From: Cyanophora paradoxa CCMP329
Taxonomy: Eukaryota; Plantae; Glaucophyta
Assembly (NCBI GenBank): GCA_004431415.1
Contig: QPMI01000061.1
Span: 90,243 to 154,242 of the forward strand
Length of the DNA: 64,000 nt
Direction: 5' to 3'
Part shown: positions 12,379-64,000 of the stretch, piece by piece
Numbering within the stretch: the stretch's first letter is position 1
How the letters are laid out: the number at the start of each line of letters is the position of its first letter
Position numbers and translations under genes: made by a program
The notes under the pieces: model-generated
What the model was told of the DNA's origin: nothing
Databases searched by the model: none
What the model saw: only the letters and a program-made list of their open reading frames with translations

Positions 12379-15300
12379 ATGGCGGAACTGGATGGCGGGC
12401 GCGATGGCGTCGAGGACACGTCTAGATCTTGGATTTTGAGAACCTCAAGACTCCTTAGGAGAGCTGCAGAGAAGGCGCATGCTTTGCTGATAGAGCCGCA
12501 TGCGAAAGTCTCCAAGGTTTGCTTGGCAGAGAGTCGCCTATGGCCGCTCCCAACTCTCCCAACTGCATACGTGGTCTGATCGGAGTGCAGGATGAGAAAA
12601 CCCAGCTCCTGGCACAGTCTCTTTCAGTTGCGATCCTCTTCAGTCTCCCCTTCAACGTCGCCTGGATCGCCCCCATCTGGAGCAGGGAACGATGCCGGTG
12701 CGCTGCATAATCTAGCCGCTGCGCCAGCGCCGTGGCCGCGCTGGCAGGTGTCAATTGCCCAGCGGCGCTGCTGACGGCCCGCCGTGCAGGCTCGCGCTGG
12801 CGCACGTCATCGTCAACCTCGCGTGCTTTATTCTGTCGCGTACGCGGCACGTCATGATCGCAGTGTACCTATGGCCTGTTCTCCTCTTCCTCACGGAGCT
12901 GCTCGACCTGTATGCGCTACATGCGCTTGGTGATTTCTCAAATAAATGAGTTTGAACTGGACTGCTTAAAACCCATTGCAGATACCCACATTACCTTCGT
13001 CTTTTTAGTAGTTCTTCTGCAGCTTGTAATCTTCATTTTGCCTGTGATTTTTTCAGTGCGCCACCCGCACGCCCGTCTCCCGCTCGCCGTCCGACGGCCG
13101 ACCGCCGCCCGCCGGCAGCTGCTCTTCCTCGCCTTCGCGACGGTGCTGCTGGCCCTCGCGGAGCGCTTCGGCGCGCCCTTCGGCATCAGTCAGTATGATT
13201 GGTGCGCCCGCGCTCTGCTCTCCCGCCCGCCCCGCCGCCCGCCCGCCCCCTTGACCCGCCCGCCGCGCAGGTGGTTCTGGTGCGGCTTCGGCGGGGCCGT
13301 CCGCCTGGGGTCACCCCCCTCGGCCTCACGGGCAGGGCGGGGGCGGGGGCGCAGGTACGCGTTCGCGGTGCTGTCGAGCTTCGGGGTGGCGGCGTACGTG
13401 GCGGGGCGCGAGCGGCGGGCGGTGGCGCTCGTGGAGGACGCCCTCGGCGTCCTCAAGGAGGAGACCAACATGAAGACGCAGTTCATCGGTGCGCAATCCC
13501 CCGCACCGAGCGACCGCCCCCGGCCCTGGCGGCCCCGGCGCCGCGGCGGCCGAACCTTGCTTCGGGCCGCACGCACAGCTCACGCACGCTTGCAGCTAAT
13601 GTCTCGCACGAGATGCGCACCCCGCTCACGGGTGCGGTGCGTGCTTGCGGAGGCGCGTGCGGTGCTGAGGCTCCTGCGGCAGCGGTGTGCGGGGCGGCGG
13701 AGCTGCTGCGGGAGTCCGGGCTGGACGAGGAGCAGGCGGAGCTGGTGGGGATGATCGAGAGCGCGGCGGAGGGCGCCGTCCGCCTCGTGACCTCCATCCT
13801 GGACTACTCCAAGCTCGCCGCCGGCGTCATCGAGCTCAAGGAGGAGCTTTTCGACGTCCGGTGCGCCCCCGCCGGCCCCGCGGGGCGTGCGGAGCGGCCC
13901 GCGCCTCCCCCGCCCTCGACAGTCTCTGTTACCTGCTCTGCCCCCTCCCTCTCTCTATGCGATCCCCCGGCGCTGCACTGCTGAACTGGGGCCTGCAGGG
14001 ATCTCTTTGAAAACTGCGTGGGGGCCATCTGGCCGGTGGCCCGCCTCAAGGCGCGCCCGCCCCGCCCCGCCCCGGCCGGCCGCGCCCCGCGGCTGAGGCC
14101 GCTGGCAGAACCTCTCGGTGGACCTGCTGATCGACTGCCCCTTCCACGAGCCGCACGTCGGCGACACGGGCAAGATCCGCCAGGTCCCCGCCCCGCCCCG
14201 CCCCGCATCGCACCCGCCCCGTCGTCTCTCCGCCGCTTGAGCTGCTGGGGGCAGGCTACTTTTAACTTCTTGAGCAACGCCATCAAGGTCAGCGTCGCGT
14301 CCAGCTGCTTTCGTCCCCCAGACTGCTCTCTTCCAAACTGCTTCGTCCAACCTGGCCCCTCCAACCGCGTTCAAACCTAGCCCGCCTAATTCAACCCCGT
14401 CCAACTTAGCCCGCCCAACCTAGCTCGTCCAGCCCCGTCCAACCCGCAGCCGCCGCTCCCCCATCCCCCCGCCGCCGCCCCTGACGCGCCCTGTCGCCCC
14501 GCAGTTCACCCAGCAGGGCTCCATCGAAGGCGCGCCCGCTCCCCCGCTCCTCCGCCCTCGCGCCGCCGCCCCTCACGCGCCCCGGCGCCGCGCAGTGAGC
14601 GTCTTCGTCACGCCGGACCCTCCGGTGAGCGGCGGGCGGCCCCGGCGGGCGGCGCTCGCTCGGCCTCGCCGCTGACGCGGGGGCGGCAGCGGCGGCGGTA
14701 CCACGTGCTGGAGGTGCGGGTGCGGGACAACGGGCCGGGCATCCCCAAGGACAAGATGCAGCTCCTCTTCCGCAGATTCATGCAGTCCGCCGCCCCGCCC
14801 GCCCCGCCCTGCCTCGCCTCGCCCGGCCCTCGCCGAGGGCGCCGGCCGGCGCAGGCTGCACGACGCGATGACGGGCAAGGTCCAGGGGACGGGCCTGGGC
14901 CTCGGTGCGCGCCGCGGGGCGTTGAGCTGCTCCCCGCCGCGCCTTAGCTCGGGGGGCAGCGATCACGAAGTCGCTGGTGGAGGCGATGGGGGGCACGGTG
15001 TGGGTGGAGAGCGCGCAGGACCCGCTGCAGCACGGCTCCACTTTCGGCTTCCGCCTCCCCCTCCGCCGCAGACCCGGCCCCGGCCCCGGGCCCCTCGCCG
15101 CCCCGGGCGCCGCGGGGCGCCGCCCCTCGATCTCGCTCTCGGGGCCGGGGGCGGGCGAGGGGGAGGCGTCGCCGCTGGGGGCCCCGGGGGGCATCCCCTC
15201 GTTCACCGCCTCCGAGGGCCCCGCGCCCCTGGCGCAGGGCGAGGAGGCCCGCTGGCGCCGCCGCTGGAGCGCCGACGGCAGCGCCGCCCCGCCGGCCCCC

Positions 15301-17286
15301 GCCCCGCCCCGGGGAGGGCGACGGCCCCGCCGCGTCCGGCGAGGAGGCGCCGCCCCGCCCGCCCACCTTCCTCCGCTTCCCCGCCGACGACGAGACCGAG
15401 GAGTCGTGCGGCGAGGGCGAGGCGGGCGGCGAGGGGCCGCGCGGCGCGGAGCACTTGCTCGAGGCGCCGCCCTCGCGCAAGGACAGCGAGTCGCGGCGGC
15501 CCTCGGTGCACGCGTGGGGCACGCACCCGCCCCGCCGCGCCGGCCACCCTGGGGCCCCGAGGAGGGCGGCGCCGGGCGGGCCCCTTGACGCCCTTCGGGC
15601 ACGCCCACAGCAGCCCGGGGCGCCCTGGGAGAGCCCCGGCTCCCCAGCTCGGGCGGGCAGGCCGGCACGCCGGGCGGGGCCTCGCGGGGCCGCGTGCGGG
15701 CGGCGGCCGGCTCGCTGGCGTCGGTGCGGCGGGCGGGGCGTGGCTGGGGCGCGTGCTGCGGGGGGGCGCGGGGAGCCCCGCCTCCTCCTACTCCCTCCGC
15801 TCCCTCGAGAGCGACGGCGCGGGATCGCCGCCGGGCACCCTCCCCGCCCTCCCGCCCTCTCCCGGCCGCCATCCGCGAGGGCGGCCTCCCCGCCCGCCGC
15901 CGCCCCGCCGACGTCGCCCGCCGCGCCACCGTCGCCTCCCCGCTCGCCCCGCCCTCCGCCTTCGCCGCCCCGCCGGCCCCGCCGCCGCCGCCGCCGCCGC
16001 CGCCCGCTCCGCCGCCATCGGCCGCCGCGCCTCCACCGGCACTTACTTCGCCCGCACCGCCGGCGGCCCCGCGGCGGCGCTTGCGGCGTCGGCGGCGGGG
16101 GCGGGGCGGGCGAGGGGTCGCCGCCGGGCCGCGCGTGGTGAACCGGCCCGCCTTTTCCCTGACCGTCCAGACGAGCTTCGACTCGAGCGGCTCCTCGGCG
16201 GTCGCCGCCCTGCGCCAGGCGGCGGCGCTGCTCGGGGCGCCCGCCCCGGGAGCCCGGGGGCCCGCCGCCGCCCTCGCGCCGGCCCTCGCTCTGCCCCGTC
16301 CACCCGGAGCCCGGCGAGGGCGAGGGCCACTCCCCGGCGCTCCGCCCGAGAGCCCCGCCCCGCGCCCCCGCTCCCCTCGCCGGCCCCCGCCGCCACCCTC
16401 GCGCCCCCGGAGGCGGCGCCGCGCAGCGGCGGCGCCGCGACGCCGGCCCCCTCCGCCCCCTCCGCCCCGCCGCCGCCGCGGCGACGGGCCCCTCGGAGCG
16501 GGGCCCGGCAAAGCCGACCCCGCCGCCGGGGGCGGGGGCGGGGCGGGGGGGGCGGTGGCGGGTGCTGGTGTGCGACGACAACGAGTTCAACGTGCGGATC
16601 GCGCGGAAGATGCTGGAGGCGCTGGGCTGCGAGGTGGCGGTGGCGCGCGACGGGCAGGAGGCCGTTGACCTCTTCGCCGCCGGCGCCCGCCTCGATCTCG
16701 CTTTTCTGGACCTGCAGAGTCCGCCCCCGCCTACGAACCCACTCTCGCTCCTCCCCACCGCAGCCCACCCGCGCCCCTCGCCCCCCGCAGTGCCGAACAA
16801 GAGCGGCCTGGAGGCGGCGGCGGAGATCCGGGCGATGGCGGGGCCGGGCGGCGGGGCGGCGCCGCCGCTGCTGGCAATCACGGCGAACGTCTCGGAGGAG
16901 TGCCGCGCGCAGTGTCGCGCCGCCGGCTTCACGGGCTTCATCGGTCCGCCCCCGCCCCCGCGCCCCCCCGCCCCCTCGCGCCGGCCCCTGGCGAGCGGGG
17001 GCGGGGGCGGGGCGCAGGCAAGCCCTTCAAGAAGAGCGACCTCGCGTCGGCGCTGGACCGCTTCTGCCGGCCCCCGAGCCCCGAGCCCGGCCCCGCCCCC
17101 GGCCCAAGAGCGCCACCCCGGGGCCCCGCCCCGCCGTCGTCCCCGCGCCCGCGGCGGCCGGGGCCGGGGCCCCGGTGCGCATCGCCGGCGTATCCGTCCC
17201 CGAGTCTCCCTCCGCCTGCGCCGCCTGAAGCCGCGGGGGCACCGCCCGCGCGCGCCCGCCGCCCCTCGTGCCACAGTCTCTTTTGA
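12379..17286 (+). CDS. Membrane-bound hybrid sensor histidine kinase (TM region + HisKA + HATPase + receiver)
   Basis: H-box ANVSHEMRTPL, N-box FNFLSNAIKFT, G1 VRDNGPGI, G2 GTGLGLAITKSLVEAMGG. Receiver VLVCDDNEFN...LDLQMP...AITAN...KPF. Several hydrophobic N-terminal exons. Stop lies at 17228 or 17286. Confidence 0.92.
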
Positions 17287-17855
17287 TCAGACGCGCTTTC
17301 GCGTACTTCGCGGCTGCGTGCCTCCACCGTTGCTTGCAATTGCAGGTTAGTTCCTGCCAACGACTTCGGACGCTGTGCATTGTGAGATTGTTTTGAATGC
17401 CGTAGTGTATCTCTAGATCTAGCTATAGGTGAGTAGCCTAGTAGGTAAAAAGCTCGGCTGATGTTTCGTTTCCTGCCGAAGTGCCTTCGATTTGCCGAGA
17501 TGAGGCGCACTGCGCAGACCGTTGAACGGCCTTCGATCGTTGTCGATCGCCAGCCTGGCAGATCGCTTTCAAATCATTGAATTTCGCATGGGTAGTTAGT
17601 TTCAAGTTTCCCCAGCACTGTCACACTGTGACAGCGCGCGCGGCGCGCTTCTGCGCAGTCTCGAAATTTTCGATTTTCTGACTCCCGCGGGCCGAGTCCC
17701 GACTCCCGAGTTCCGAAGCTCCACAGCCGGCACTCTAGTACAGAACTGTCACTAAATAGTGTGTGACTCCTAGTGCTCCGGGCCCGAGTCCGGGGGGCTC
17801 CTCAGGTTTGATACGATTGCAAACTATGATTTGGCAACTTGCCAACGGCCACGGG

Positions 17856-55458: not shown

Positions 55459-56897
55459 ATGTACGCGTTTGGAGCGATACGAGCAATGTCGTCGGTGCGT
55501 GGAGACGCGCGGATTGCCGGCTGCCCCGTGACGTCTGCGGACTTGACTGGTGGCGCAGATCGCAGGCCGCCCAGTCGGTCTCGCGCATGTGCGGCGTTTC
55601 GCAGATTCAGCCGAGGCGCCGGGCTTCAAGCTGCCCAAACTTCTCGGCGTCGTGGGCGCGGGGCAGGTGGGCGCCTGCCGTCGAGGTACGCCGTCACGAG
55701 AGCGTCCGAGCGAGCCGGCGTGCGCAGATGGGCTCGGGCATCGCACTCACCGCCGCGAATGTCGCCGAGGTGCGCCGGGCGCCGCAGTGCGCGCGCGCGC
55801 CGCCTCCGCCGAGGGCGCATGCATATGCATGCACTACGTATACACTCTGACAGGTTTGCTCTGACAGATCCCCACGGTGATTTACGACGCGTCCGAGGCG
55901 GCCCTGACGCGCTCGCGGGAGCTGCTCGAGAAGGAGCTCAGCAAGCGGGTAACGAAGGGGAAAATGTGTGGGGGGTACCCCGTCTTATCTAGACGGATAT
56001 ACATATAGCCGCCGGTCTGCCTCTGAGGGGGCGGGGGCGGGGTGGAGGACGGAGGCGGGGCGGGAGGCTGTGCTGGGGCGGCTGAGGTTCTCGGGGGCGC
56101 TGGAGGCGCTGGGGGAGGCGGACTTCGTGGTGGAGGCGATCTCGGAGGAGGCCGCCCTCAAGCAGGCCCTCTTCGCCCGCCTCTCCGCCCTCACCCGCCC
56201 CGCCGCCGTCCTGGCCCGCCCGCCCCCCGAGGCCCCGCCCGCCCCGCCCCCCGCCCGACTCGACGCGCCGCAGGCCTCGAACACGTCGAGCATCTCCATC
56301 ACCAAGCTCGCGGCGGCGACCACCCGGCCCGAGGTGCGCGCGGGGCCCGCGCCGCCCGAAGCCGCCTCGGCCCGCTAACCGATCGATGCGGCGGCTCAGA
56401 GCGTGATCGGTGAGCCGGCCAGCGGGCTCGGATCTGAGGCGGGGGCTCGTGAGCGGGGGCCTCTGAGGGGGCTGGGGTGCGGGGGGCCCCGGGCGCAGGG
56501 ATGCACTTCTTCCACCCGGTGGCGGTGATGCCGCTGGTGGAGATCGTGCGCGGGGCGCAGACGGAGGACGCCACCCTCGCCCGCACCACCTCCCTCGCCC
56601 TCGCCATGCAGGCACGCCCCCGCCCCGCCCCCCGCCCCGCCCCCCGCCAGCTCAGCCCCGGCGCCGCCGGCGAGCAGAAGCAGGTGACCCACGCGAACGA
56701 CTCGCCGGGCTTCATCTCCAACCGCATCCTCATGCCGTACAGTGCCGCACCCCTCCCCGCCAGCCCCCGCCCCTCCCCCCCGCTCATGCGCCCGGGCGGG
56801 GCGGCAGTCAACGAGGCGGTGTTCGCGCTGATGGAGCGCGTGGGCACCGCCGCCGACATCGACGCCACCATGAAGCTCGGCACTAACGCCCGCACCG

Positions 56898-56928
<31 letters not shown>

Positions 56929-57288
56929 CCCCGCGTGACGGCGGGCGGGGCGGGGCGGGCAGGTGCCGATGGGCCCGCTGGAGCTCGCCGACTTCATCGG
57001 CCTCGACACCGTCCTCCACATCCTCAACGTCCTCCACTCCCGTGCGCCTGCCCCGGGCCCCGCCCCAGTCCCGGGCCCCGCCCTCCCGCCCCCTGCTGCT
57101 GCTCCTCATGATCACTCCCCCGCGCAGAGATCGGCGACCCGAAGTTCAGGTGAGCGGGCTGGCCATATGCATGGGGGCCCGGGGGAGCATCGGCCCTCCA
57201 TCTACATCTCGCCCGATGCCACCCCACCCTCTACCCCCCGGCCCCTCGCACCCCCCACCCGCCACGCCCCTCTCTGAGGGGGCGAGCA

Positions 57289-57329
<41 letters not shown>

Positions 57330-57451
57330 TGCGCCCTTGGGCGCCTCCGCCCGCCCCCGGCCCGCCCCCCGGCCCCCGAGCTGACGCCGGGGCCCCCAGG
57401 CTGGGGCGCAAGGCCGGCCGCGGCTTCTACCTCTACGGGGCAGCCAAGTGA
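55459..57451 (+). CDS. 3-hydroxybutyryl-CoA / 3-hydroxyacyl-CoA dehydrogenase, mitochondrial-type presequence
   Basis: GVVGAGQMGSGIA, DFVVEAISE, ASNTSSISIT, GMHFF, DSPGFISNRILMP, PMGPLELADFIGLD, GWLGRKAGRGFY. Confidence 0.95.
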
Positions 57452-58029
57452 CGCCGCCCCGGCCGATTGGCGACCGCCCCCGGTCGATCGCGAGGCCGCT
57501 GAGGCCGCGGCTCCCGCTGCGCATTCCGGAGTCACTGAGTTCCGCATGTACACGTACTCTTTGCCCCGCGGGGGCCGGCGCCCGGCCCGGCCTTGGCCCT
57601 CTGTACATGTGCAGCCTGGCAGCAACACTCTGTCTGCCTGCACGTGAATTGCCACGTTCATCCGTTGAACGCTCACCGGGTCACGGGTGGTTCGATCATT
57701 GAATCGCAAAACATGAAAGAGAAAAGGAACATTAACACTGTCACAAGTGTGACAGCGGATCGGGTTCCCCGCCGGACAGACTAGCCAGGGCCTAGTAGCA
57801 CCGTCCGATCACAGTGCCACGGTGTCGCAGTGTTCTACGGTACTACTAGCTATAGGCTGCGCGTACAGTTTGCGCACATTGACCCAATGATAATTATATA
57901 GGAGGGCCATCAATGGGCCAAACGCGAAAAGGCAACTCCGAGAGCTCGAGACTCGGAAGTGACGCTTGGATTGCGGAGGTTCTTATAACCTCCGGGTCAC
58001 AGCTGGGGGGTACCGTAGACGAGGCTGGT

Positions 58030-58120
58030 GATCACCATGATCGCGACGATCGCGATGACGATTCCGATCACGACGATCGCGAAAACGAGACGATCGCGAC
58101 CATTTTCGATCGCGATTTCG
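58030..58120. repeat. Cluster of five GATCGCGA motifs
   Basis: GATCGCGA at 58039, 58048, 58075, 58092 and 58108, plus GATCAC variants. Confidence 0.85.
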
Positions 58121-58275
58121 GGGAGGGGGTCCATTTTGGGCCGGGGTAGAGAAAATAAATGCGAAAAGGCCGAAAAGTGCGTTTTTCACGCGTGAAATCG
58201 ATCGAAAACGAGGGTTCGAATCCCGGGTCCGGATTTGGACTTGGGCAAAATCTCGAGTCAAAATGGGAGAAAAAT

Positions 58276-58340
58276 GGGACCTGGGACTTGGGACTTGGAC
58301 TTGGGACTTGGACTTGGGACTTGGGACTTGGGAAGAGTTG
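58276..58340 (+). repeat. (GGGACTT)n cassette, copy 1
   Basis: About 7 GG(G)ACTT units ending in GGGAAGAGTT. Confidence 0.95.
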
Positions 58341-58433
58341 GAATCAGAGTCTAGACTCAAAAGCGGGGAAATTTTCGGACGGGGAGAAAAATGTCAGGCA
58401 ATCTCTATTACGATTTCCCCTTTGAGTTGCATA

Positions 58434-58744
58434 TGGCATTCGAGAGGCTGCGCGAGTTCTGGCGCTGGCACCTCACAGGACATGACATCCCCGACGTAAC
58501 ACCAGAGCCCAACTTACAGGGCGTGCTTGAAGTCATCCGTCAATATCCGCGTCGATTCAATGAATGGATTGAGTTCCACGCAACGAACCGTTTCCAGAGT
58601 CTCCCCGAGGCCATACGCGAAAATTTCGTGAGGCTGGTGGGGCCAGGCTACGACAACCCTAACAATCATAGACCACGCCAGCTGCGTGACGCGCGAAGCT
58701 CGAAGCGACCGCAGTCTTTTCCGCAGGGAATTGAGAGAGGATAG
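58434..58744 (+). CDS. Hypothetical intronless protein in the element
   Basis: MAFERLREFWRWHLTGHDIPDV...; about 100 aa, protein-like composition, no recognisable family. Confidence 0.4.
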
Positions 58745-59193
58745 ACGGAGGCTTTCAATGGGGCTCCCGCAGATTGTGAGGGGTACAGCCCGGATTACGA
58801 GACTTACCAAGAATTGTACGGCTTCGAAAATCCCTTTGAGAGGGTACTACCAGGGTGAGGGGCCAGGGGGGCCCCTGAGGGTGTACCCCGGCCCGAGACT
58901 CGACCTTCGGCGGACGCACTCGGGCGATTTCCGTCAGGCCGGCTCCCTTTTTCTGCCTTCGGCCAACGCTAAATTTGGCTTTTTTCAGGCCAGTTGGCAA
59001 CGTTTTCCGTTGCGAACTAGACCGCGAAAAAATCGCCCACAAAACCGCGGTCCGCCGCCATTTTGGCTCACTCTTGAAACGGGTTCGCCGCCTTCTCTCA
59101 GCCCAAGGAATCCCGCCTCTCCGAATTTTCACAAGTCCGCTCTCTCAGTCACCTCACGTTTTGCCTTTGCTGATCTCTCTTCCCTTTGCGCAG

Positions 59194-60244
59194 ATGTCGA
59201 TTCCCTCTGAGCTTGTCGAGGACCTTGCCAAGGCCCGTGAGATGTGGGCTAAGTCCCGCGATTGGCCTACCCGTGAAATGGAGAAGCGTGCCCGCAAGCT
59301 GGGGTACCTCTACCAAGCTCACAGCGGAGAAGGCTTCCATACCATCAACCTCAACTTTGTATCCACCCTTCTGCCCAAGTCCAAGCAACCCAAGCCCGAG
59401 CCCAAGCCCGAGCCCGTCGACGTGCCCCCGTCCCCGGCTGGGTCAAGACTCCCACTGGCTGGGCGACCCCAAGCTTTTCGCCGAGTCTGCCGCCGAGACG
59501 CTCGCCTGGGCCTATCCCCTCAAGTCTTCACGAATTCCCCCCTCCGTCATCGTCGTCATCTGCCCCTCAGCCCGTCGCCGAGCCCGCTCCCGAGCCAGTC
59601 GATGACGCCGAGTCCGAGGCCTCTGACGCCGAGTCTGACATCAACGACTTTATCGACTTTGACGTGCCGATTCCATACGACTCTGAGTCCTCTTCCGACT
59701 CTGAAGGCGACAACGAAAACCCGACTCGCAAGCGCCGCATTATCAAGACCAAGTCAATCGTCAAGAAGAAGTTCATGGAGACCACGTCATTCACCGACAA
59801 CTCCGAGCGAGTCAAGAATCCCGCCAAGGAACACGAAAAAGACTTGAAGATCGGCGCTGGCATTGCCCGTTCTCGCGTCACGTCACACTTCAGCAAGCGC
59901 CTGACTCAGCACGTCAAGACCATTGAGAAGCGCATCATCGCCAAGCGCGAAATGGCCGAACTCCGGCGCAAGTTGCGTCACGAGCGCCTTCTTCGTCGCG
60001 AGATGACGCTGGCCAAGATTGCCGAGCGCAAGAAGAAGGAGCAGCGGAACTTAGGGCGCGCGTCGAGGCTCAGCAGCGGCGCGAGGCAGAGGCGGCAGCG
60101 GCCTTGGCGGCGCAGCGCGAGCAGGAGCGGCAGGACTTAGTGCAGGCAGCGCAGGCCCTTCCCCGCATTCCCCTTAAGTCCGCGCCCGAGGCCCCGATTG
60201 ACTTGGTTTCCGATGACGATGATTCTGACTTTGAGATGCTGTAA
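59194..60244 (+). pseudogene. Frameshifted ORF: basic/acidic coiled-coil protein with C-terminal SIM-like IDLVSDDDD
   Basis: MSIPSELVEDLAKAREMW... continues across frames as PEPVDDAESEASD...RKRRIIKTK...KIAERKKKEQ...APIDLVSDDDDSDFEML*. Codon usage stays consistent across the shifts. Confidence 0.6.
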
Positions 60245-60315
60245 ATAGTATTGCGTCATTCCATTGTACATACTTGTAAAAATTGGCCGACTATTCAGTT
60301 ATGACTTGGCGCGAT

Positions 60316-60420
60316 CCTGGGACTTGGGACTTGGGACTTGGGACTTGGGACTTGGGAAGAGTTAGACTCAGGGTCTGGGCCCAGACTTTCTCTGGATCTG
60401 AGAGTTTGCCGTGCCAAGTC
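60316..60420 (+). repeat. (GGGACTT)5 cassette, copy 2 (left arm of an inverted pair)
   Basis: CCT(GGGACTT)5GGGAAGAGTT...CCAGACTTTCTC..GATC...CAAGTC. Confidence 0.95.
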
Positions 60421-60643
60421 CCTAACCACCGGGCAGACATGTAGAGGGGTACGGAAATCTGCATATGACGTTTCTGGTGACATTCCAGGTGAGATTTCAA
60501 GCGAGGTAGAGTCTGAACTGGTGTACGACTTGTAGCATGATACTGGACATGAAAGCTCACGAGAGTATGCAACCGAAAACGGATGTGAAGAGGGGTAGGA
60601 GTTTTCGTGTGAGATGTCGAGAGAAGGAGGGTACGAGATGGGA

Positions 60644-60717
60644 TACGAGTAAAAAAGACTACGAGTAAAAAAGACTACGAGTAAAAAAGAGTATGAGGAG
60701 TGGTAGGAGTAAAAAAG
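60644..60717 (+). repeat. 16-bp tandem repeat TACGAGTAAAAAAGAC, three copies plus a partial
   Basis: Copies start at 60644, 60660 and 60676; a further GAGTAAAAAAG lies at about 60707. Confidence 0.9.
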
Positions 60718-60736
60718 TCGGTAGAAAAACTCACCT

Positions 60737-60845
60737 GACTTGTCTGACAAATTTCTGATCCTGGAGAAAGTCTGGCCGGGACCTGGGTTTCAACTCTTCC
60801 CAAGTCCCAAGTCCCAAGTCCCAAGTCCCAAGTCCAAGTCCCAGG
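60737..60845 (-). repeat. (GGGACTT)n cassette, copy 3, inverted (right arm)
   Basis: Reverse complement reads CCT(GG[G]ACTT)6GGGAAGAGTT...CCAGACTTTCTC..GATC...CAAGTC. Confidence 0.95.
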
Positions 60846-60866
60846 TTTTTCTGAACCTAGGGCAAA

Positions 60867-61228
60867 ATGGCCCTGCTCCGGTGCACCGACTCGCAAGACG
60901 TCGCCTACAACGTCCTGGTCAACTCGGACGTACCCCGAGTGCCTTGGAGTTTCCCTGGAGAGTGGACAGGGACAGGGTGAGCAAGACGTTTGGAGGGCGC
61001 AAGCACTACCTCTCCCAACTGATCCTCGGGAGTCGCCACGTGGACGCTACGTGGAACACATCAACGGCAACCCGCTGGACTACAGGAGGGAGAACCTGCG
61101 CTGGCATCAATGTCGGATATTCGCAAGAAGAGGAGGGGGTACGCCAATTTACAGGAGAAGAGCGAGGAGATTCGGGAGATGATGAGGCGGCACAGGCGCT
61201 AATGCAGCTTAGCCAGTCTAGACGCTAG
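60867..61228 (+). pseudogene. HNH endonuclease (HNH_3 type), frameshifted
   Basis: CAAAATG start MALLRCTDSQD..., then FPWRVD...KHYLSQLILG, and after a shift near 61030 PRGRYVEHINGNPLDYRRENLR, matching VxHINGxxLDNRRENLR. Confidence 0.8.
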
Positions 61229-61326
61229 TGGTGTGAATCTTGGTGTCGTACTCGCGACCAACCGTTTCCCAGGCCACGTAAACTCGGCTCCGGCGCCTGG
61301 CGCTGTCGAGTTGGTAGTCGCAGTCG

Positions 61327-62018
61327 TTAGTCCGCCTCTGCCTCAATTAGTTCGGCCATGAGGTAGAGCCCACGACCATTCCAGAGGTAGGCATTCCGGC
61401 GATGTTGTTGTACAATTGAAAGTGAATTTGTGAAGAGGAGCCGGGGCCAGACCTGGGTACGGGGATTCGAGGCGCCGTATGAATAATCGGTACCGAGGCG
61501 CCGCCCGTGGTGGCATTCGTCATCATCTCCTTTGCGGTCATCTTCCAGAGGTTGTACATCTCAAAGGGAACGGCCTGCGTGGTCTTGTGTGTGGCATCGA
61601 TGAGGGCGCCATCTAAATGCGTTTTGATGTTCGGATTCGCACCATTCCCGAATTTGCGAGTGAGGGCGGTGTTACGGTGAACTTGAGTCGAGCACGCGAA
61701 TGGCGGGCCGATCAGGCACAGAGGCTCTATCTTTTTCAGGAGGCCCGAGAGCCAGAGCGCCTCCGCCTCATCCGCGCTCACGCCCGAGTCGATGTCAAAG
61801 TACACGTACACGGAGCAGGAGGCGGATTCTCGAAATCGTTGGAGGTGACGCGCAACATGACGGGATTCTGGACCCTCACGGTGAGCGGGGTGGCGTAGTT
61901 TCCGTCCCACTCCACCTTGTCCGTCCTGCGTTGGCCACGTTCCCAGCGTTGCCGTAGAAATCGGGACGATCGAGCCGGCAGACACGGTCTTCACGATGGT
62001 GGCCGAGGTGGTCGGCAT
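61327..62018 (-). pseudogene. Element ORF A (about 230 aa, frameshifted), paralog of ORF B
   Basis: AAAATG start MPTTSATIVK...; segments VRVQNPVMLRVTSNDFENP, VYFDIDSGVSADEAEALWLSGLLKKIEP and LYLMAELIEAEAD*. Confidence 0.6.
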
Positions 62019-62027
62019 TTTGCGACC

Positions 62028-62714
62028 TCAAATGAGAAAGATTATCCGTGAAAGAGGGTGATGTCGCCACGCATGTTCATGACGCGGGCCCAGGCACAGA
62101 GTCAGCGTCGGTGCCGTACGCGTAGGAAATCGAGCACTCACGCAGCTCCGCGCAGAGGCTGGCGCCGTGCTGAGTGGGCTGGTCGGCGGCGTAGGAGAGG
62201 GGAAGACCTGAACCTGAAAAAGGTGAAGGGAAGCGGGGTAGAGTCGAGCCGCGTGGGTTGCCGCCCGTGTAGAGGGCCCCCAGGGTCGCGGGACTTGGAT
62301 TGAATTTCGTGAAGAGCACGTCGCCCTTGAGCGTACCCTCATCTGGTAAGTTCCCGTACCCGGAAGATTCGAAGAACTGGGGTACCGGTTCACGGTGGGG
62401 CCGTACCCCGTCTCCCTGAACTTGACCTCGAGACAGCGCAAGACGTTGGCAGTGGCCGTGGCAGGTGCCACCTTTTTCACGAGTCCTGATTCGTGCAGCA
62501 GCTCGATAACCTCTGCGCTGAGGCTCAGAGGGTCGAAGAAGAGCTGGTAGAATAAATCTTGGGCGTGGCGTAGGCGTTCTGAACGACCTGAATCACGACG
62601 GGATTCTGCAGAAAGACGTCGACGTAACTGCCGGAGGGTATGCGTGCGAAATCCTTGGTGTTGTTGCCAACGTCAAGTGAGCCGCTGAGGGTCTGGTTAC
62701 CAGTTGGAAGTCAT
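62028..62714 (-). pseudogene. Element ORF B (about 220 aa, frameshifted), paralog of ORF A
   Basis: Segments VFLQNPVVIQVVQNAYATP, LFFDPLSLSAEVIELLHESGLVKKVAP and SLCAELREC. 3' end approximate. Confidence 0.6.
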
Positions 62715-62751
62715 TTACCCGGGGCAGATATTTTTCGGATCGTAGAGGAAA

Positions 62752-64000
62752 ATGCCCGCTTCGTATTCGTGAAAAAGCAGGTGGTGCAGGCTCCGCAGTA
62801 TGGCGTGGAGCCGATCTCGCTGACTGTGGGCAGGCCCCAGGTGCGATCGGGCTCCGTGCTCAACAACGGAACAGTACGTACGGCTTTCAGCTGAACTGGG
62901 TCGCGGTCACCAACGCCGTCAAGTACAAGGTGTACAGGGCGACCAGCATCAACGGCCCTGGGATCTCGTGCCACGGTGAATGCGCCAACCGTCACCTACA
63001 CGGACTCTCCCTTTAGTTTTGGGGGCCCAGCGACTCTACCGCGTGGCGGCGGTTCGCGAACAGGCAGCAGCAGCACGGGCTCTGATGGCAAAGCCCCGCC
63101 CACAACCTACGCACAGTCGCTTCTCTACACCCACGAGGGTGCCATGAGCAATACATTCTCTTCCAAGGCATAGGCGGCTTCAGCCCGCAGATCGAAGCCT
63201 ACACCACGCTCACGACCGCCACGGCCCAGACTACGGCGATTTTATTGCCGGGGCGGCCCGCGTCTTCGGGCTTCCGAAACCCGCCATAGTCGTCACAATC
63301 AACTGGGTGGCCATGGAGGGCGCGGACTCGATTCGAATTTACAGGAACGGTACGCCATCGATTTGCGAGCAGTGCCCTGTCTACCTCGTACATTGACGAT
63401 AGCACTGCTCTTACGTGGGGCACGGAATACTCTTACCAGGTGGGCCGGCATCGTGGGCGGTGTCGAATACGACAAGTCCGATCCGCCTCCTGGTCTGGAC
63501 TATGCCAAACGCCCCCACGAACGTGACGGCATCAGCACCCAACGACCAGCAGCAGCCTGTCAGCCTCAGCTGGACTGCGTCCACGGGAGCGACGGGATAC
63601 AAGATTTACAGAGACGGGGCCTACCTCACAGACTCCGCGACCAACTCCTACAGCGACACGACCACCGTCTGGGGTACAGGTACGAGTACCAGATCTCCGC
63701 GACGAACACGGGAGGGGAGGGGCCGAAGAGTATTGCGGCGTACGTCACCACGGACCCGGGGGCGCCCACTGGGCTCACTGCAACCCCCGCGCGGGGGCAG
63801 CACAGCCTGTTGTGCTCGAGTGGTCGGTGCCGGTGACGGGCGTCACCGTCTCCTACAACATCTACAGGGGTGGCGTGTTCCTTGCCAGCGACACGAGCAG
63901 CCCCTTTTCGGACACAACGACCGTTTACGGAACCACTTACACTTACACCATCAAGGGCGTCAACCAGATCGGCGAGGAAGGCCCTCAGTCCTCGTCTGCC
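62752..64000 (+). pseudogene. Multi-fibronectin type III repeat protein, intronless, frameshifted, 3' end outside the window
   Basis: At least four FN3-like units across frames: LNWVAVTNAVKYKVYRATS...TYTDS, INWVAMEGADSIRIYRNG...SYID, LSWTASTGATGYKIYRDG...YSDT...YEYQISATNTGGEGPKS, and SYNIYRGG...FSDT...YTYTIKGVNQIGEEGPQS. Confidence 0.85.

What the first reader, a model, noticed from the sequence alone, without database searches (positions are those of the whole stretch)
57850..64000. Edge of an unclassified endogenous virus-like element inserted after a housekeeping gene block
Seen: after the HBD gene the host signature (CCCCG/GGGGC introns, extreme GC) vanishes. It is replaced by tightly packed ORFs with AAAATG starts: an HNH_3 nuclease, two paralogous ~225-aa proteins, a tandem-FN3 protein and repeat cassettes. 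Established: free-standing HNH genes and FN3 fibre-like proteins are typical cargo of DNA viruses, and Polinton-like viruses, NCLDVs and mirusviruses occur integrated in protist genomes. Inference: this is the left end of such an element. Its class cannot be assigned from this window.
Basis: partly seen in the sequence, partly recalled or inferred. Interest (0 to 1): 0.85.

Follow-up and report, generated by a model that had tools for sequence, protein, structure and literature searches.

The report
Left end of algal endogenous virus
This is the left end of a multi-gene DNA element repeated roughly twenty times or more in a freshwater alga's genome; it is likely one of the integrated Polinton-like viruses already catalogued in that species, and its broken genes are probably sequencing errors rather than decay.

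Summary
The junction is real. One single-copy contig in each of 3 of 3 DNA runs crosses from the spliced host gene into a repeat that starts at about 57,895-57,900, not at the GC drop near 57,600. The adjacent contig has about 21-24 times single-copy depth. Near-identical gene models lie on 43 contigs of the glaucophyte Cyanophora paradoxa, often in the same order. The element genes are broken mostly by single-base deletions with almost no substitutions, which points to long-read errors. Published surveys list 366 capsid genes and 156 Polinton-like elements for this lineage, 40 with HNH_3. No capsid, ATPase, polymerase or integrase lies in the window, so class membership is untested. Extras: the fibre-like gene has a constant FN3 stalk with different tips in different copies. 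The paralog pair is about 260 aa, not 225, and is unresolved: low-confidence folds resemble T7/giant-virus ssDNA-binding proteins, language-model features resemble phage cement proteins. Verdict: real, probably a member of a known kind, modest interest.

The parts
55459..57451 (+). Host 3-hydroxyacyl/3-hydroxybutyryl-CoA dehydrogenase-like gene with short GC-AG and GT-AG introns (start approximate)
   Evidence: Sequence (motifs recalled); spliced RNA contigs in run X15
57452..57894 (.). Host 3' UTR and single-copy intergenic DNA; holds the GC drop but is not part of the repeat
   Evidence: Single-copy contig 56,969-57,924 in 3 of 3 DNA runs; RNA contig 57,455-57,620; GC 0.53 in 57,601-57,894
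57895..58260 (.). Left terminus of the multi-copy element, probably part of a terminal inverted repeat (inferred); first base between 57,895 and about 57,900
   Evidence: Unique contig ends 30 nt after 57,894; contig from 57,961 has depth 1545/2064/2123 against 72/97/90; another single-copy contig carries 57,895-57,955 internally with 4 differences
58275..58359 (+). First cassette of a 7-bp tandem unit, upstream of the first ORF; role unknown (promoter or origin element is a guess)
58391..58858 (+). Small ORF (117 aa, then an in-frame stop and about 37 more codons); no family hit
59194..60244 (+). ORF-A, 351-aa charged protein with acidic linker and helical C-terminal half; 5 single-base deletions in the window; function unknown
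   Evidence: 346 identical, 0 substitutions against intact P0050; 21 gene models
60317..60845 (.). Second and third repeat cassettes, an inward-facing 90-nt inverted pair (77% complementary) around 342 nt that holds a decayed reading frame and a 16-bp tandem
60867..61202 (+). Small HNH endonuclease gene, split over three frames
   Evidence: HNH_3 E 1.4e-4, below cut-off; 4 PHROG HNH families; frames
61218..62018 (-). Paralog 1, about 266 codons, 11 frame breaks; predicted T7 gp2.5-type ssDNA-binding OB fold or a virion cement/minor capsid protein (unresolved)
   Evidence: folds 53, 61, 62, 70, 107, 116, 123; Atlas 125, 136
62060..62714 (-). Paralog 2, frameshifted, end approximate
   Evidence: fused gene model P0032 shows the same paralog 2 then paralog 1 order in another copy
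62752..64000 (+). Fibre/spike-like gene, about four FN3 repeats, runs off the window; 14 frame breaks
   Evidence: 402 identical, 2 substitutions against P0076; PF00041 and PHROG tail hits

Best explanation
This is the left end of a dispersed, multi-copy, intron-free gene block integrated behind a spliced host gene, and it is likely a recently inserted, essentially intact mid-sized DNA virus of the Polinton-like kind reported in Cyanophora. Shown: real junction, sharp shared terminus, about 21-24 near-identical copies of the terminal stretch (about half as many elements if it lies in a terminal inverted repeat), conserved order ORF-A, paralog pair, FN3 gene, and intact versions of ORF-A and paralog 1 elsewhere in the species. 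Inferred: an element-encoded integrase (retroviral-type in 85 of 156 glaucophyte elements) inserted it through terminal repeats; it sits silenced by CpG methylation, as repeats and viral genes do in this species; on reactivation it would make double-jelly-roll particles from capsid and ATPase genes beyond 64,000. The FN3 protein would be the attachment fibre, with tips exchanged between subfamilies by recombination. The HNH gene would be a selfish or packaging-linked nuclease. The paralog pair would most likely be T7-type ssDNA-binding proteins for strand-displacement replication (about 0.5), with a virion cement or minor capsid role close behind (about 0.4). The frame breaks are probably uncorrected long-read errors.
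For: Junction, terminus and depth. Family and order: 28 contigs with paralog-family models, 21 with ORF-A, 13 with named FN3 models, union 43; ORF-A within 2 gene numbers of a paralog model on 11 of 21 contigs; FN3 next to either on 8 of 13 (one of these contigs may be the window's own locus). Errors rather than decay: 0 substitutions and 5 deletions in ORF-A; 2 substitutions and 14 breaks in FN3; near-identical copies break at different places; host tubulin and polymerase alpha exons read through by eye; CpG observed/expected 1.04; the same artefact is described for endogenous viruses in PMC10120064. Prior catalogue: 366 capsid hits in two unnamed clusters; 156 elements, 139 with packaging ATPase, 40 with HNH_3. 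Viral character of the cargo: PHROG tail hits to E 7e-24; both the fold searches and the Atlas return viral proteins for the paralog.
Against: No capsid, ATPase, polymerase, integrase, second terminus or target-site duplication was seen; the window ends first and no genome is held. None of the 6 capsid-bearing contigs named in the supplement rows I saw is among my 43 contigs, although 6 of 366 is a small sample. The only element stretch laid against reads (57,895-58,260) shows no indels, so the error reading of the frame breaks is not directly shown. The first ORF has an in-frame stop and the inverted pair encloses a decayed frame, so some real decay exists. The paralog evidence conflicts: models have mean pLDDT 47 and 44, Z only 4.2-5.2, and there is no acidic tail, while 24 of 30 named Atlas hits are Bbp16 clusters.
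Confidence: 0.7

Rival explanations
1. The element is an endogenous mriyavirus-related virus (small relative of giant viruses, 35-45 kb) that replicates with an HUH endonuclease and a T7-like ssDNA-binding protein, not a classical Polinton-like virus.
For: Mriyaviricetes-related regions are reported embedded in a glaucophyte assembly (bioRxiv 10.1101/2025.04.19.649669). Gamadviruses carry a T7-like SSB (PMC11253617). Only 2 of 156 glaucophyte elements match the MCP-POL capsid profile, and 6 listed Cyanophora capsids have giant-virus capsids as best HHpred hits. Top fold matches of paralog 1 are viral SSBs.
Against: None of the mriyavirus core genes is in the window. The SSB call is weak. The catalogued glaucophyte elements mostly carry a retroviral-type integrase or a B-family polymerase, which is the Polinton-like pattern.
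Confidence: 0.13
2. The element is the end of a giant endogenous virus (Nucleocytoviricota) or of a fragment of one.
For: Giant endogenous viral elements are reported in C. paradoxa (PMC12344493). Fold hits include African swine fever virus CP312R and unnamed giant-virus proteins.
Against: About 21-24 near-identical copies of the terminal stretch and 43 dispersed contigs fit a mid-sized mobile element better. No giant-virus marker in 6.1 kb.
Confidence: 0.07
3. It is a capsid-less transposon or non-autonomous derivative that carries virus-derived cargo and is moved in trans by an autonomous element.
For: No autonomous machinery in the 6.1 kb seen; an internal inverted cassette pair and a decayed frame; a short terminus remnant elsewhere in the genome.
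Against: Intact 351-aa and 252-261-aa versions and long fibre genes are kept across diverged subfamilies, which suggests selection on virion-type genes; relatives occur in two environmental records (P0010, P0012).
Confidence: 0.08
4. It is an assembly chimera or contaminant.
For: Dense frameshifts confined to this block.
Against: 3 of 3 DNA runs bridge the junction with 0 differences; 14 listed DNA runs hold 61-68% of the words of 56-64 kb (3 of them laid).
Confidence: 0.02

Closest known systems
Endogenous Polinton-like viruses of Cyanophora paradoxa / Glaucocystophyceae (PMC10120064; PMC12220804)
   Same: Same species as the near-identical gene models; dispersed multi-copy, lower-GC, gene-dense insertions; HNH_3 in 40 of 156 elements; fibre genes with lectin-type tips; artefactual frameshifts in long-read assemblies.
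   Different: Capsid, ATPase, integrase and both termini not seen here. A text search of PMC12220804 found no fibronectin or SSB term. Whether this copy is among the 156 is unknown.
Mriyaviricetes, family 'Gamadviridae' (PMC11253617)
   Same: Small double-jelly-roll viruses with a T7-like SSB (PEV_26); related regions reported in a glaucophyte assembly.
   Different: Here two tandem paralogs; no HUH, VLTF2/3, RuvC or capsid in the window.
T7 gp2.5 / Enc34 / DUF2815 / ASFV CP312R single-stranded DNA-binding proteins
   Same: Top four VIA matches for both models, aligned over 118-142 residues of the core; phage SSB at E 4e-4 in BFVD.
   Different: Z 4.2-5.2, rmsd 4.2-5.7, 5-12% identity; no acidic tail, low charge; no profile similarity to gp2.5.
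Bbp16-like phage proteins (PF21190; recalled as the jelly-roll cement protein of phage BPP-1)
   Same: 24 of 30 named Atlas feature hits, score 0.90-0.91, 185-189 shared features; small-residue-rich composition like the fibre; next to a fibre gene.
   Different: Family carried by only 21-37% of cluster members; 170-190 aa against 260; no profile similarity to Bbp16; my models matched OB folds.

Membership tests
Polinton-like viruses | Double-jelly-roll major capsid protein | not testable with these tools
   Window ends at 64,000; no genome held; no related loci retrieved
Polinton-like viruses | A32-like packaging ATPase | not testable with these tools
   No hit in 93 frames of the 6.4 kb seen; rest of the element not available
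Polinton-like viruses | Integrase (retroviral-type or tyrosine recombinase) and a polymerase or primase-helicase | not testable with these tools
   As above
Polinton-like viruses | Single-jelly-roll minor capsid protein | tested here: inconclusive
   The paralog pair is a candidate: Atlas points to Bbp16-like proteins, low-confidence folds to OB folds
Polinton-like viruses | Terminal inverted repeats | tested here: inconclusive
   One sharp terminus shared by many copies; the other end is not in the window
Polinton-like viruses | Target-site duplication; 14-40 kb length | not testable with these tools
   Needs the right end
Polinton-like viruses | Dispersed multi-copy integration with GC shift and dense multi-gene content | tested here: met
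Mriyaviricetes | Mriyavirus capsid, HUH endonuclease, VLTF2/VLTF3, RuvC | not testable with these tools
   Not in the window
Mriyaviricetes | T7-like SSB (gamadviruses) | tested here: inconclusive
   for; against
Giant endogenous viral element (Nucleocytoviricota) | Length over 100 kb with core genes (PolB, RNA polymerase, VLTF3, capsid) | not testable with these tools
   Window ends; copy number argues against it
T7 gp2.5/Enc34-type SSB | OB fold with the family's helix and hairpin insertions | tested here: inconclusive
   Best Z 5.2, rmsd 4.2, 118 aligned; Z 5.2, rmsd 5.1, 130 aligned; models pLDDT 47 and 44, built from overlapping alignments
T7 gp2.5/Enc34-type SSB | Acidic C-terminal tail (recalled feature) | tested here: not met
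   3 acidic and 2-3 basic residues in the last 25 of 6 of 6 family members counted
Bbp16-like cement protein (PF21190) | Sequence or profile match | tested here: inconclusive
   Atlas features 0.90-0.91; no Pfam hit in 16 members; hhalign E 0.41 with a shallow profile, Neff 1.5
HNH_3 endonuclease (PF13392) | Pfam gathering score 24.8 | tested here: inconclusive
   21.9 bits on a frameshifted fragment; 4 PHROG HNH hits
Fibronectin type III repeat protein (PF00041) | Pfam gathering score 25 | tested here: met
   28-39 bits in 8 of 8 full-length or partial sister copies scanned

The most novel reading that the evidence does not exclude
These Cyanophora elements are a distinct lineage of intact, recently mobile integrating viruses between Polinton-like viruses and giant viruses: they carry a duplicated giant-virus/T7-type ssDNA-binding protein, a giant-virus-like capsid, and a fibre whose receptor tip is swapped among resident copies, which would make the genome a library of attachment specificities and offer the first inducible DNA virus of a glaucophyte.
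Probability: 0.2. Interest if true: 0.7.

Novelty: new member of a known kind. Interest (0 to 1): 0.36.

Why it matters
Endogenous Polinton-like viruses in protists are well known and this lineage is already catalogued, so the edge itself is not surprising. Three points have value. The copy looks intact and recent, which makes it a candidate for induction in a culturable alga. The fibre has one stalk with several tips. If the paralogs are T7-type ssDNA-binding proteins, they would tie these elements to mriyaviruses and giant viruses: my searches and term searches in PMC12220804, PMC10120064 and PMC11161782 found such proteins described for mriyaviruses and giant viruses but not for Polinton-like viruses. 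That library omits most subscription papers.

Tried and rejected
No relatives with context: viral contigs (none; 120 one tblastn match but no locus; 19 none), metagenome contigs, annotated phages; the prokaryote genome collection was not scanned (not run). PHROG and Pfam give no family for the paralog; a BLF1 hit at E 0.06 in 1 of 16 members is noise. PDB sequence search with the paralog profile gave only a designed repeat protein. PDB Foldseek gave no match at E 0.001. No jelly-roll capsid protein was recognised in the top 50 VIA rows of either model; with such models this does not exclude the fold. hhalign against Bbp16, T7 gp2.5 and BPP-1 Bbp40 was insignificant (E 0.41, 0.45, 0.58). P0033 and P0035 are repeat-driven false hits. 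Expression: no RNA holder is on record; six guessed-RNA runs share 25-28% of the words but only one was laid, on 55,500-58,260, where it covered host exons only; this says nothing on element genes. Telomere reading of the cassettes: canonical plant/animal telomere motifs are not enriched and the repeat continues for 6 kb of genes. Decay by CpG loss: not seen. Earlier scan notes: nothing on this genome or sequence; one search listed 8 notes on other genomes that do not bear. The SSB paper by Kazlauskas and Venclovas was not held and is known only as cited in PMC11253617.
Full report
Observation. GC is 0.75-0.80 up to about 57,600 and 0.44-0.70 (mostly 0.50-0.62) beyond; only 1 of 191 host 300-nt windows is as low as 0.55. 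The host side is an intron-rich housekeeping block (importin, tubulin, polymerase alpha, APC2 and others, 119 of 219 long frames scanned). The last host gene ends at 57,451 and RNA contigs confirm its introns. The block after it has six reading frames, three tandem-repeat cassettes and an inverted pair. Every long frame is broken. HNH is a sub-threshold but repeated hit. FN3 is solid on sister copies.

Junction and copy number. I laid three DNA runs and one guessed-RNA run on 55,500-58,260 (4 of 24 listed runs). In 3 of 3 DNA runs one contig of single-copy depth (72, 97, 90) covers 56,969-57,924 (57,923 in one run) with no differences. It crosses the last exons, the GC drop and the first 30 letters of a repeat. 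The repeat therefore starts at 57,895 or a few bases later. The next long contig, from 57,961, has depth 1545, 2064 and 2123, that is 21.5, 21.3 and 23.7 times. This is a rough count from contig means and covers one sequence variant; variants with 1-4 differences are also deep. So the insertion is real and multi-copy, and 57,600-57,894 is host DNA.

Host and family. A fragment of paralog 1 found 14 proteins of 48 candidates: the window's own, 11 EukProt models and two environmental proteins. Cluster look-ups name the EukProt models as Cyanophora paradoxa. ORF-A found 9 clusters of 554 candidates, 21 models. The FN3 fragment found 18 of 111, 17 of this family. Named models fall on 43 contigs. 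ORF-A is within two gene numbers of a paralog model on 11 of 21 contigs and the FN3 gene is beside either on 8 of 13. One fused model shows paralog 2 directly before paralog 1 in another subfamily. That the window is from this species is an inference from 96-100% identical proteins; one listed contig may be this locus.

Breaks. Against intact P0050, ORF-A has 346 identical residues, 0 substitutions and 5 single-base deletions, four of them at C or G runs. Paralog 1 has 11 breaks and 4-5 apparent substitutions, three of them beside one break. The FN3 gene has 402 identical residues, 2 substitutions and 14 breaks. Sister copies break elsewhere. Decay would give substitutions first, so this is the pattern of unpolished long-read consensus in repeats (inference). 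PMC10120064 describes the same artefact (part 2 of 7 of the text read). The published assembly of this species used PacBio RSII reads (PMC6704402, passages).

Fibre. Sister models share about four FN3 repeats and differ at the C-terminus. P0088 ends in a fibrinogen/intelectin-like domain (PDB E 9e-4). P0085 ends in a domain matching a PHROG virion structural protein (E 1.3e-6; LamG-like by eye). The window's subfamily ends in a glycine-rich-type domain (by eye, recalled pattern, no family hit). ORF-A also has alternative N-termini. These are automatic gene models, so fusions are possible. A constant stalk with exchanged tips is how phage and adenovirus fibres vary (established knowledge).

Paralog pair. 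Two AlphaFold models (mean pLDDT 47 and 44; overlapping alignments, so not independent) rank the same four chains first among 48,161: T7 gp2.5, DUF2815, Enc34 SSB and ASFV CP312R (Z 4.2-5.2, rmsd 4.2-5.7), followed largely by other OB folds. BFVD gives an unnamed protein at E 1e-4 and a phage SSB at 4e-4 (similar). The tool warns that Z under 8 may be a common arrangement. Against this, the Atlas feature search with the environmental relative P0010 returns unnamed phage proteins at 0.93-0.94 and Bbp16 clusters in 24 of 30 named hits. The family has 44-46% small residues, 7% basic residues and no acidic tail, and it lies next to the fibre. Profile comparisons decide nothing. I put SSB at about 0.5 and a virion cement or minor capsid protein at about 0.4.

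How it probably works. Shown: integration, terminus, copy number, gene order, intact sister genes. Inferred: integrase-driven insertion through terminal repeats, silencing by methylation (repeats and viral genes are methylated and silent in this species; PMC12344493, passages), and particle formation from genes beyond the window. A helper giant virus is possible by analogy and is untested.

What is known. PMC10120064 (passages, one part of the text, supplement rows) lists 366 capsid hits for C. paradoxa in two unnamed clusters (272 and 94). PMC12220804 (passages, supplement parts 1 and 33 of 46) counts 156 glaucophyte elements: 139 with A32 ATPase, 85 with retroviral-type integrase, 49 with organellar/viral B polymerase, 97 with a minor capsid, 40 with HNH_3, and only 2 matching its MCP-POL profile. 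A bioRxiv preprint (passages and section 10) reports mriyavirus-related regions in a glaucophyte assembly. PMC11253617 (passages and section 5) gives gamadviruses a T7-like SSB. PMC8502044 (one passage) notes adintovirus-like proteins in this species. PMC11161782 and bioRxiv 2026.08.29.747986 (passages) added nothing. I could not link this element to any catalogued capsid.

Verdict. The element most likely belongs to a kind already reported for this alga, and no defining viral gene could be tested. New details are the defined terminus, the evidence that the copy is intact, the exchanged fibre tips and the unresolved SSB-like pair. Interest 0.36.

Noticed in passing
window 55,500-57,451: Many host introns start with GC, not GT; RNA contigs confirm at least two GC-AG introns in this one gene.
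   Followed up: partly
window 57,895-57,955: A single-copy 8,148-nt contig in 3 of 3 DNA runs holds this terminal stretch internally with 4 differences: a lone terminus remnant elsewhere in the genome.
   Followed up: no
window 58,730-58,858 and 60,540-60,650: The tail of the first ORF and the frame inside the inverted pair share glycine/tyrosine/glutamate-spaced repeats, both with an in-frame TAG at a similar place; possibly a duplicated, decayed gene or a read-through stop (by eye).
   Followed up: no
window 60,317-60,845: Two cassettes face each other as a 90-nt inverted pair around 342 nt; could be a small nested element or an invertible segment.
   Followed up: no
window 59,160-59,194: ORF-A lacks the AAAATG start and follows a pyrimidine tract ending in CAG, like a splice acceptor; a 5' UTR intron is possible.
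   Followed up: no
P0045, P0047, P0043 against window 59,194-60,244: ORF-A copies keep the C-terminal two thirds and exchange the N-terminus; the C-terminus ends in a short hydrophobic-acidic motif like a SUMO-binding motif (recalled).
   Followed up: no
window 58,039-58,100: A 27-bp tandem rich in one palindromic hexamer lies 150 nt inside the terminus; candidate origin or binding site.
   Followed up: no
window 13,199-17,347: A host histidine kinase with a response regulator domain.
   Followed up: no
L001:35559-36107: The unannotated BPP-1 gene bbp40 begins with a motif I recall from Enc34-type ssDNA-binding proteins, and hhalign paired it with the first strand of the paralog family, without significance.
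   Followed up: no
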